From: Escherichia coli
Lineage (GTDB): Bacteria > Pseudomonadota > Gammaproteobacteria > Enterobacterales > Enterobacteriaceae
Assembly (NCBI RefSeq): GCF_050320075.1
Contig: NZ_CP190018.1
Strand: one strand, 5' to 3'
Length of the DNA stretch: 64,000 bases
The notes beneath the pieces are model-generated. The model was not told the DNA's origin and did no database searches. It saw nothing but the letters and a program-made list of their open reading frames with translations. Each line of letters opens with the position of its first letter. The stretch's first letter is position 1. Below, piece after piece: positions 18,291 to 18,771 of the stretch. The translations under genes were made by a program, and so were the position numbers.

Positions 18291-18771
18291 CTGTCACGTA
18301 ACGCCAGATAACTACAAAAACACCTTTTTCCTCCTGTAAATTGCAGTTCCTGCAAGAACATCAAGGTATAATGTTGGAACAGCGTGTGATACACACTTAG
18401 CATCATGTTTTGTATGTGTTTTTTTAAAACTTTACAACTTTAAAGTCTTTTTCAGGTTAAAGGATACAACTTTAATGTCTCTACACAATTGCAGCGAAGT
18501 CGTCCTGAGCTATTTCCTAAAGATGAAAATTATTAGAGTCGCATTAAAAATGAGCTAATTTTGATAGTGGTTATCTTGTGATTATTTTCTAATGAGCCTG
18601 TGAACTGAGACCCTCCATGCTTAATATAAGGTGGAGGGAAAGGTGATTAAAACTCCCCCAGTGGCCAGATCTTTATAAAATATGAACAGGTTGAAAAAAT
18701 CAGCAACTTAGCTGTTTATTTATACTTAACCACTATGCATTAATGCTGCGTTATTTCATGATACCTAAGAA

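What the first reader, a model, noticed from the sequence alone, without database searches (positions are those of the whole stretch)
18420..18480. Tandem ACAACTTTAAWGTCT motifs in the AT-rich segment downstream of the IS66 insertion
TTACAACTTTAAAGTCT and ATACAACTTTAATGTCT occur about 35 bp apart in a strongly AT-rich, apparently non-coding stretch that was contiguous with the pcoE downstream region before IS66 inserted. Such spaced direct repeats could be binding sites for a transposase or regulator, or part of a transposon end belonging to the resistance island.
Basis: seen in the sequence. Interest (0 to 1): 0.3.

Follow-up and report, generated by a model that had tools for sequence, protein, structure and literature searches.

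The report
Transposase-binding repeats at Tn6230's end
The two repeated 15-mers are the transposase (TnsB) docking sites in the last 55 bases of Tn6230, the known Tn7-like transposon that carries the silver/copper resistance genes, so the feature is real but ordinary and already described.

Summary
ACAACTTTAAAGTCT (18434-18448) and ACAACTTTAATGTCT (18466-18480) are the only such sites in the 64 kb window, 32 bp apart start to start.

They lie in the last 55 bp of the mobile DNA. The sil/pco island ends at 18487 (…CTACACA), followed by the 5-bp target duplication ATTGC and the displaced last codons of yhiN.

- **Same motif at the far end.** Read inward, the motifs are GACATTAAAGTTGTA and GACTTTAAAGTTGTA. 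The same motif occurs three times, inverted, at the tnsA-proximal end, 8.2 kb upstream of the window.
- **Match to Tn7.** The first site starts at base 9 from the terminus, as in Tn7, whose site there reads GACAATAAAGTCTTA.
- **Non-circular test.** A matrix built only from far-end sites ranks the two motifs first and second in the window.
- **Conservation.** In three diverged left ends the motifs are 81-88% invariant, against about 30% for neighbouring sequence.

The element is 99.5% identical here to Tn6230 of plasmid R478, which encodes TnsA, B, C and D. Published Tn6230 terminal repeats contain this motif.

In the genome that matches the window, tnsA is truncated and tnsBCD are deleted, so the sites could act only with proteins supplied in trans.

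The parts
18465..18479 (-). Terminal TnsB-type binding site L1. It reads GACATTAAAGTTGTA inward, at bases 9-23 from the terminus.
   Evidence: top-scoring position in the window with a matrix trained only on far-end sites. 81% invariant in three diverged left ends.
18433..18447 (-). Second TnsB-type binding site L2. It reads GACTTTAAAGTTGTA inward, at bases 41-55 from the terminus, 32 bp from L1.
   Evidence: second-best position in the window. 88% invariant in three diverged left ends. It sits at inward position 40/41 in all three.
18480..18487 (-). Terminal 8 bp of the element (TGTGTAGA read inward), ending ...ACA-3' at 18485-18487. This is where TnsB-type 3'-end cleavage and joining would occur.
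   Evidence: The boundary is fixed by BLAST breakpoints, by alignment with the K-12 empty site, and by the R478 and Citrobacter junctions.
18488..18492 (.). 5-bp target-site duplication ATTGC (the copy on this side).
   Evidence: AMA1167 has ATTGC directly abutting both ends. K-12 has it once. In the genome identical to the window the far junction reads ATTGC-A-TGT, with one extra A.
18488..18508 (+). Displaced 3' tail of yhiN (ATT GCA GCG AAG TCG TCC TGA). The insertion point lies 5 codons before the yhiN stop.
   Evidence: Alignment with the K-12 yhiN-yhiM empty site. The empty-site match begins at 18488 in each listed genome that has only the flank part of the query.
18390..18404 (-). Candidate degenerate third site (GATGCTAAGTGTGTA inward, bases 84-98). 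Status is inconclusive.
   Evidence: Matrix score is about 0. A weak match falls at inward position 84, 84 and 79 in the three diverged left ends. The block is only 39% invariant.
18283..18487 (.). The 205-bp tns-distal ('left' in Tn7 convention) end segment of Tn6230 that remains outboard of the IS insertion.
   Evidence: 99.5-100% identical to R478 and many IncHI2 plasmids over exactly this stretch.
15583..18282 (-). ISCro1 (IS66 family) inserted in Tn6230 cargo DNA 125 bp after pcoE. It is flanked by a GACCAAC repeat and does not touch the end sites.
   Evidence: Annotation of the identical genome. Breakpoints against uninterrupted R478.
1..18487 (+). The part of the Tn6230 copy that lies in the window (silB to the left terminus). 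The tnsA-proximal end is 8,183 bp upstream of window base 1.
   Evidence: Window is 100% identical to E. coli YZLc1-3 313871-338870. Annotation. Far end at L003 20689.

Best explanation
The two motifs are the first and second TnsB-binding sites of the tns-distal (Tn7 'left') end of Tn6230. Tn6230 is the Tn7-family transposon that carries the sil/pco silver-copper resistance genes and inserts site-specifically into the 3' end of yhiN.

How it would work, by analogy with Tn7 (inferred):
- Copies of the DDE transposase TnsB bind each repeat.
- The copy on the terminal site (bases 9-23) places its active site on the ...ACA-3' terminus at 18487 for 3'-end cleavage and joining.
- TnsA cuts the 5' strand.
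- TnsC and the TnsD/TniQ selector deliver the complex to yhiN, making a 5-bp duplication (ATTGC).
- The 32-bp spaced arrangement here, against the 20-bp arrangement of the first two sites at the tnsA end, distinguishes the two ends and fixes orientation.

Shown here: position, boundary, duplication, inverted recurrence, conservation, homology of the transposase, and sequence and offset match to Tn7 sites. Inferred: physical binding by TnsB and the role of spacing.

In the genome identical to the window, tnsA is truncated by IS1 and tnsB, C and D are deleted. These sites could therefore act only if the proteins came from another Tn6230 copy.
For: - **Boundary.** Mobile DNA ends at 18487|18488. 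Bases up to 18487 match sil/pco plasmids including R478 at 99.5%; bases from 18488 match the E. coli chromosome. The K-12 empty site confirms this.
- **Termini and duplication.** The ends are TGT...ACA. Exact 5-bp duplications are GGTCC in R478 and ATTGC in AMA1167. Tn7 itself shows GCGGG.
- **Far end.** It reads TGTCCGAG-GACAATAAAGTTGTA...AGCACTAAAGTTGTA...GACGCTAATGTTGTA, with sites at inward positions 9, 29 and 60. The near end has sites at 9 and 41.
- **Non-circular test.** A matrix from far-end sites only ranks 18465-18479 (20.3 bits) and 18433-18447 (16.6 bits) first and second of all window positions on both strands. The next best scores 12.8.
- **Tn7 comparison.** Tn7's right end has GACAATAAAGTCTTA at position 9, identical to the Tn6230 far-end site over its first 11 bases.
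- **Conservation.** In three diverged left ends with different cargo (sil/pco, mcr-9/rcn, CBASS) the motifs are 81-88% invariant, against 29-30% nearby and 0% in the flank.
- **Transposition genes.** Intact copies encode TnsA, an AAA/TniB-type TnsC and a TniQ/TnsD protein. They also encode a 707-aa protein matching Tn7 TnsB (PDB 7PIK) at E=1.5e-49 over nearly its full length. By my reading of that alignment against the known Tn7 catalytic residues, the DDE positions are aligned.
- **Site-specific insertion.** 602 of 5,426 complete E. coli genomes have this end joined to the yhiN tail. A Citrobacter genome has the same terminus next to what appears to be its own yhiN tail.
- **Literature.** Tn6230 targets yhiN (PMC11406308, Table 1). 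R478 is used as the Tn6230 reference, and Tn6230-subfamily terminal repeats are given as TGTCCGAAGACAATAAAGTTGT and TGTACACAGACATTAAAGTTGT, with TnsB-binding sites named as backbone features (PMC13049778). Laboratory transposition of Tn7/pco/sil between yhiN and yhiM is reported in PMC8417528.
Against: - No binding experiment for Tn6230 TnsB is available to me. A 2024 review states that the molecular details of Tn6230 targeting are unknown (PMC11406308).
- The copy in the matching genome lacks tnsB, C and D, so the sites are not in current use by the element's own proteins.
- Only two strong sites are seen at this end, where Tn7's left end has three. The third candidate scores about 0.
- The Tn6230 TnsB gives no Pfam or NCBIfam hit. 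Its identity rests on the PDB sequence match.
Confidence: 0.93

Rival explanations
1. The repeats are operator sites for a transcription regulator, such as PcoR/CusR or a cargo-encoded repressor, controlling a promoter in the pcoE-distal region.
For: They are spaced direct repeats in AT-rich non-coding DNA close to a two-component-regulated operon.
Against: - No gene lies between the repeats and the element terminus, 8 bp away.
- No sigma-70-like promoter was found at the repeats. The only hit in 18283-18900 is at 18561-18588, and one hit is below the shuffle expectation.
- The same motif sits inverted at the opposite terminus, upstream of tnsA.
- It is conserved in elements with unrelated cargo that have no pco genes, such as the CBASS element.
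- From my own knowledge, the motif does not resemble the palindromic CusR/PcoR 'copper box'.
Confidence: 0.02
2. The repeat is a chance similarity in low-complexity AT-rich DNA and has no function.
For: The segment is 36% G+C. In 35 of 2,000 mononucleotide shuffles of the 537-bp segment, at least one position scored 15 bits or more.
Against: - There are two hits in the same orientation, at the positions predicted from the independently mapped boundary.
- They are the top two positions in 64 kb with a matrix that never saw them.
- They are 81-88% invariant across left ends that are otherwise about 30% invariant.
- Exact-pattern expectation is 0.16 per window.
Confidence: 0.01
3. The repeats belong to the IS66-family element (ISCro1), or to the chromosomal yhiN-yhiM spacer, rather than to the resistance island's own end.
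For: They lie between the IS (which ends at 18282) and yhiM.
Against: - The IS ends 150 bp away, and its flanks rejoin perfectly in R478 and AMA1167, which lack the IS but keep the repeats.
- In every listed E. coli genome without the island, the match starts at 18488 and lacks the repeats; K-12, read directly, also lacks them.
Confidence: 0.01

Closest known systems
Tn6230 (Tn7 family; reference copy in plasmid R478; yhiN attachment site)
   Same: The 204-205 bp end segment is 99.5% identical to R478. Termini, cargo order (sil...pcoE, then the end) and the yhiN insertion site are the same. Published subfamily terminal repeats contain the same GACATTAAAGTTGT core (PMC13049778).
   Different: This copy carries an ISCro1 insertion 205 bp from the terminus. 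In the matching genome it has lost tnsA' through tnsD and neighbouring genes to an IS1-associated deletion. One extra A is present at the far junction. The published Leclercia-type repeats differ at a few of the terminal 8 bases (TGTACACA against TGTGTAGA).
Tn7 end architecture (22-bp TnsB-binding sites: spaced in Tn7-L, overlapping in Tn7-R)
   Same: Both have TGT/ACA termini, an 8-bp terminal segment, a first site starting at base 9, and a 5-bp duplication. Multiple direct repeats lie within each end and are inverted between ends. The site core GACAATAAAGT is shared. Sites are close at the tnsA end (20 bp) and spaced at the other end (32 bp) (PMC11406308 section 2.6.1). The transposase is homologous.
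   Different: - The 3' half of the site differs (…GTTGTA against …GTCTTAAACT).
- This end has two strong sites within 55 bp, where Tn7-L has three spread over about 150 bp. The tnsA end has three clear sites where Tn7-R has four.
- The attachment site is inside the end of the yhiN reading frame rather than downstream of glmS.
- No tnsE is annotated in R478. A short TniQ-like ORF follows tnsD instead.
Other Tn6230-subfamily elements (mcr-9/rcn variant in IncHI2 plasmids; 17-kb CBASS-cargo element in IncHI1B plasmid p08-4425.1)
   Same: Same two-site left-end layout at inward positions 9 and 40/41, and the same three-site tnsA-end layout at 9, 29 and 60.
   Different: The ends are 81-87% identical only over the terminal 50-90 bp, and the cargo is unrelated.

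Membership tests
Tn7-family transposon end | Element termini 5'-TGT...ACA-3' | tested here: met
   ...CTACACA ends at 18487. The far end starts TGTCCGAGG. The same holds in R478, AMA1167, Citrobacter and Tn7 itself.
Tn7-family transposon end | 5-bp target-site duplication | tested here: met
   GGTCC in R478. ATTGC in AMA1167. The Tn7 control gives GCGGG. In the genome identical to the window the far junction has ATTGC plus one extra A.
Tn7-family transposon end | Several copies of one ~15-22 bp motif, direct within an end and inverted between ends, the first starting about 8 bp from the tip | tested here: met
   Sites at inward positions 9 and 41 (this end) and 9, 29 and 60 (far end). Tn7's first site is also at 9.
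Tn7-family transposon end | Asymmetric ends: closely packed sites at the tnsA-proximal end, spaced sites at the other | tested here: met
   20-bp spacing of the first two sites at the tnsA end against 32 bp here. The rule is stated in PMC11406308.
Tn7-family transposon end | Linked tnsA, tnsB (DDE), tnsC (AAA+) and tniQ/tnsD genes | tested here: met
   All are present in R478. In AMA1167, tnsB is split by an IS3-family insertion. In the genome identical to the window only a tnsA fragment remains. None of these genes lies in the window.
Tn7-family transposon end | Physical binding of TnsB to the repeats | not testable with these tools
   This needs a gel shift or footprint with Tn6230 TnsB.
Tn6230 | Near-identity to the R478 reference element, including its ends | tested here: met
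   99.5% over 18284-18487. The far-end first 74 bases differ from R478 at one position.
Tn6230 | Site- and orientation-specific insertion at yhiN, with the tnsA end next to yhiN | tested here: met
   602 E. coli genomes with the same junction; Citrobacter. Literature: PMC11406308, PMC10121019, PMC8417528.

The most novel reading that the evidence does not exclude
Although it has lost its own transposase genes, this stranded Tn6230 copy keeps both ends intact. Its TnsB sites may therefore still matter in two ways. First, they could serve as a cis substrate that a plasmid-borne Tn6230 (common on IncHI2 plasmids) could mobilise in trans. Second, they could act as a Tn7-style target-immunity signal that keeps the yhiN site closed to new copies. 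A related small point is that Tn6230's left end may work with only two strong TnsB sites within 55 bp, a more compact design than Tn7-L.
Probability: 0.35. Interest if true: 0.25.

Novelty: already known. Interest (0 to 1): 0.1.

Why it matters
It fixes the exact edge of the silver/copper resistance island in this window at 18487. It identifies the island as a Tn6230 copy sitting in its normal yhiN attachment site. It also shows that the cis-acting end is intact even though the copy is otherwise damaged by ISCro1, IS1 and the loss of tnsBCD. This is useful for annotation and for judging whether the resistance cargo can still move. It does not add a new biological principle, because both the element and the nature of its ends are already in the literature.

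Tried and rejected
- **Regulator or promoter reading.** The promoter/terminator scan of 18283-18900 found one weak promoter-like hit at 18561-18588, below the shuffle expectation and away from the repeats, and no terminator-like site.
- **Structured RNA.** Rfam at E<=1 over 15400-19300 gave nothing.
- **Six-bp duplication.** The ATTGCA seen at both junctions of the window's genome first looked like a 6-bp duplication. AMA1167 showed the true duplication is the 5-bp ATTGC, with an extra A at the far junction of this lineage only.
- **Third left-end site.** The best candidate (18390-18404) scores about 0 bits. It is supported only by a rough positional coincidence in three elements and is left as inconclusive.
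- **Wider survey.** An exact-pattern scan of one genome per species (CAACTTTAAAGTC N15-22 CAACTTTAWTG) returned a single Citrobacter contig. It confirmed the boundary but gave no breadth.
- **Far end of the mcr-9-type IncHI2 variant (pOSUEC_D).** No match to the terminal-repeat pattern and no annotated tns gene in the 50 kb upstream of its left end.
- **Family assignment of Tn6230 TnsB.** Pfam and NCBIfam gave no hit even at E<=10. The PDB sequence search was used instead.
- **Peters et al. 2014,** the original Tn6230 description, is not held in the library.

Full report
**1. The observation**

The two 15-mers exist exactly as described: ACAACTTTAAAGTCT at 18434-18448 and ACAACTTTAATGTCT at 18466-18480 on the + strand.
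- Allowing up to two mismatches, they are the only hits on either strand of the 64 kb window. The expectation is 0.16, and 1 of 100 shuffles reached two.
- The repeat finder lists them as the best direct repeat of 18283-18830: 16 nt, 94% identity, 32 bp start to start.
- The stretch 18284-18820 is 36% G+C against 52% for the window. RefSeq annotation of the identical genome has no gene there.

**2. Where the repeats sit**

The window is 100% identical to E. coli YZLc1-3 chromosome 313871-338870.

A BLAST of 18284-18830 splits cleanly into two parts:
- Bases up to 18487 match sil/pco plasmids, including R478, at 99.5-100%.
- Bases from 18488 match the E. coli chromosome next to yhiM.

A second search centred on the junction gave the following:
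- 602 of 5,426 complete E. coli genomes have the joined form.
- Every listed genome with only the flank part of the query starts its match at 18488.

Alignment with the K-12 yhiN-yhiM empty site places the insertion five codons before the yhiN stop. The displaced tail ATT GCA GCG AAG TCG TCC TGA is at 18488-18508. The AT-rich 'segment' is therefore two things joined together: 205 bp of island DNA (18283-18487), then the chromosomal yhiN-yhiM spacer.

The ISCro1 (IS66-family) element occupies 15583-18282, flanked by GACCAAC. R478 and E. coli AMA1167 show pcoE and the end segment contiguous without it.

**3. The island is a Tn7-family transposon and the repeats are in its tip**

The island ends ...GTCTCTACACA at 18487. 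Its other end lies 8,183 bp upstream of window base 1, next to yhiN, and starts TGTCCGAGGACAATAAAGTTGTA.

The duplications are those of the Tn7 family:
- R478 has the same two termini flanked by a perfect 5-bp duplication, GGTCC.
- AMA1167, a chromosomal copy, has ATTGC abutting both ends.
- A Tn7 control fetched from an E. coli glmS site shows GCGGG.

Read inward from each terminus, the ends carry one motif, with consensus GACWWTAAAGTTGTA:

| End | Inward position | Site |
|---|---|---|
| Window (tns-distal) | 9-23 | GACATTAAAGTTGTA |
| Window (tns-distal) | 41-55 | GACTTTAAAGTTGTA |
| tnsA-proximal | 9 | GACAATAAAGTTGTA |
| tnsA-proximal | 29 | AGCACTAAAGTTGTA |
| tnsA-proximal | 60 | GACGCTAATGTTGTA |

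Tn7's right end has GACAATAAAGTCTTA at the same position 9. It is identical to the Tn6230 tnsA-end site over the first 11 bases.

**4. Tests that the motif is not chance**

- **Non-circular scan.** A weight matrix was built only from tnsA-end sites, none of which is in the window. It ranks 18465-18479 (20.3 bits) and 18433-18447 (16.6 bits) first and second among all positions on both strands. The next best scores 12.8.
- **Conservation.** Three left ends have diverged and carry different cargo: sil/pco (window and R478), the mcr-9/rcn IncHI2 variant pOSUEC_D, and a 17-kb CBASS-cargo element on IncHI1B plasmid p08-4425.1. They are alignable only near the tip.

| Block | Invariant in the three left ends |
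|---|---|
| L2 motif | 88% |
| Spacer between L2 and L1 (includes a conserved TTAAAGG) | 75% |
| L1 motif | 81% |
| Terminal 7 bp (18481-18487) | 57% |
| Further inside the element | 29-30% |
| Flank | 0% |

The sites are at inward positions 9 and 40/41 in all three. A Citrobacter contig shows the same tip abutting what appears to be its own yhiN tail.

**5. The proteins**

R478 encodes, just inside the tnsA end:
- TnsA (PF08722);
- a 707-aa protein;
- an AAA/TniB-type ATPase;
- a TniQ+TnsD protein;
- a further short TniQ-like ORF.

The 707-aa protein matches Tn7 TnsB (PDB 7PIK) at E=1.5e-49 over residues 38-682. By my reading of that alignment against the known Tn7 catalytic residues, the positions EID, D(N/R)GE and IVE line up. 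It has no Pfam or NCBIfam hit.

In the genome identical to the window only a tnsA fragment remains. An IS1-associated deletion removed the rest of tnsA, tnsB, C and D, the TniQ-like ORF and most of an OLD-like ATPase gene.

**6. Mechanism**

By analogy with Tn7, summarised in PMC11406308 section 2.6.1:
- TnsB protomers bind each repeat.
- The one on the terminal site presents the ...ACA-3' end for cleavage and strand transfer.
- TnsA cuts the other strand.
- TnsC and the TnsD/TniQ selector deliver the complex to yhiN.
- Close spacing at the tnsA end (20 bp) against wide spacing at the other end (32 bp) lets the machinery tell the ends apart.

Shown here: anatomy, boundary, duplication, conservation and homology. 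Inferred: binding, and the role of spacing. In this copy the sites can only work with proteins supplied in trans.

**7. Comparison with what is known**

- The element is Tn6230. The yhiN attachment site is recorded in PMC11406308 (Table 1) and PMC10121019.
- R478 is used as the reference copy. Tn6230-subfamily terminal repeats are printed as TGTCCGAAGACAATAAAGTTGT and TGTACACAGACATTAAAGTTGT, with 'TnsB-binding sites' listed as backbone features (PMC13049778). That paper names the tnsA-side repeat IRL, the opposite of the Tn7 left/right convention used here.
- Laboratory transposition of the Tn7/pco/sil unit between yhiN and yhiM is reported in PMC8417528.

The finding is therefore a correct reading of a known feature.

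**8. Rivals**

- **Regulator site.** There is no gene or promoter between the repeats and the tip. The same motif lies at the opposite tip. It is conserved in elements without pco genes.
- **Chance.** Sections 1 and 4 argue against it.
- **Part of ISCro1 or of the chromosome.** The mapped boundaries exclude this.

**9. Open points**

- A third left-end site (18390-18404) is only weakly supported.
- No binding data exist for Tn6230 TnsB.
- The original 2014 description could not be read.

**10. Verdict**

Observation confirmed and interpretation supported. Already known; interest low (0.1).

Noticed in passing
L003 20683-20691 (far junction, outside the window) compared with L012 3243-3252: In the genome identical to the window the tnsA-end junction reads ATTGC-A-TGTCCG. 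AMA1167 has ATTGC-TGTCCG. The extra A shifts the frame of the element-encoded tail fused to yhiN: the tail after …DLIA reads CPRTIKLYTKH* instead of VRGQ*. The origin of the extra base is unknown.
   Followed up: partly
L005 4640-4760, L002 6190-6220, L007 3080-3105, L009 16940-17060 (IncHI plasmids, not in the window): Tn6230-family elements occupy the same spot in IncHI plasmid backbones. R478 has the duplication GGTCC. The diverged pOSUEC_D left end abuts the same backbone sequence 3 bp further along. A CBASS-cargo relative on an IncHI1B plasmid has a right flank resembling R478's. This hints at a second, plasmid-borne attachment site, perhaps read by the short TniQ-like ORF after tnsD.
   Followed up: partly
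L005 5721-7844 (R478 tnsB): The Tn6230 TnsB (707 aa) has no Pfam or NCBIfam hit even at E<=10. Yet it matches Tn7 TnsB (7PIK) at E=1.5e-49 with the catalytic positions aligned. The profile libraries miss this transposase.
   Followed up: yes
window 15583-18282: ISCro1 (IS66 family) is flanked by a 7-bp repeat, GACCAAC. From memory, this family usually makes an 8-bp duplication. The base next to the left IS end (T at 15583) is not in the uninterrupted R478 sequence.
   Followed up: partly
window 19180-19947, and L003 about 21470-22240 (outside the window): Two IS1 copies in opposite orientation bracket the surviving sil/pco cargo. One truncates tnsA, with loss of tnsBCD. The other truncates yhiM, with loss of its 5' part, yhiL and part of yhiJ. 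Both IS1 copies are associated with adjacent deletions.
   Followed up: no
L012 4236-7620 (E. coli AMA1167, not in the window): In this chromosomal copy tnsB is split by an IS3-family insertion. Independent inactivation of the Tn6230 transposition genes therefore occurs in more than one chromosomal copy.
   Followed up: no
window 18771-18806: A perfect 12-bp inverted repeat (AAAACCAGCGTT / AACGCTGGTTTT, 12-nt loop) lies just after the yhiM stop. It looks like the yhiM terminator. It is chromosomal and unrelated to the transposon.
   Followed up: no
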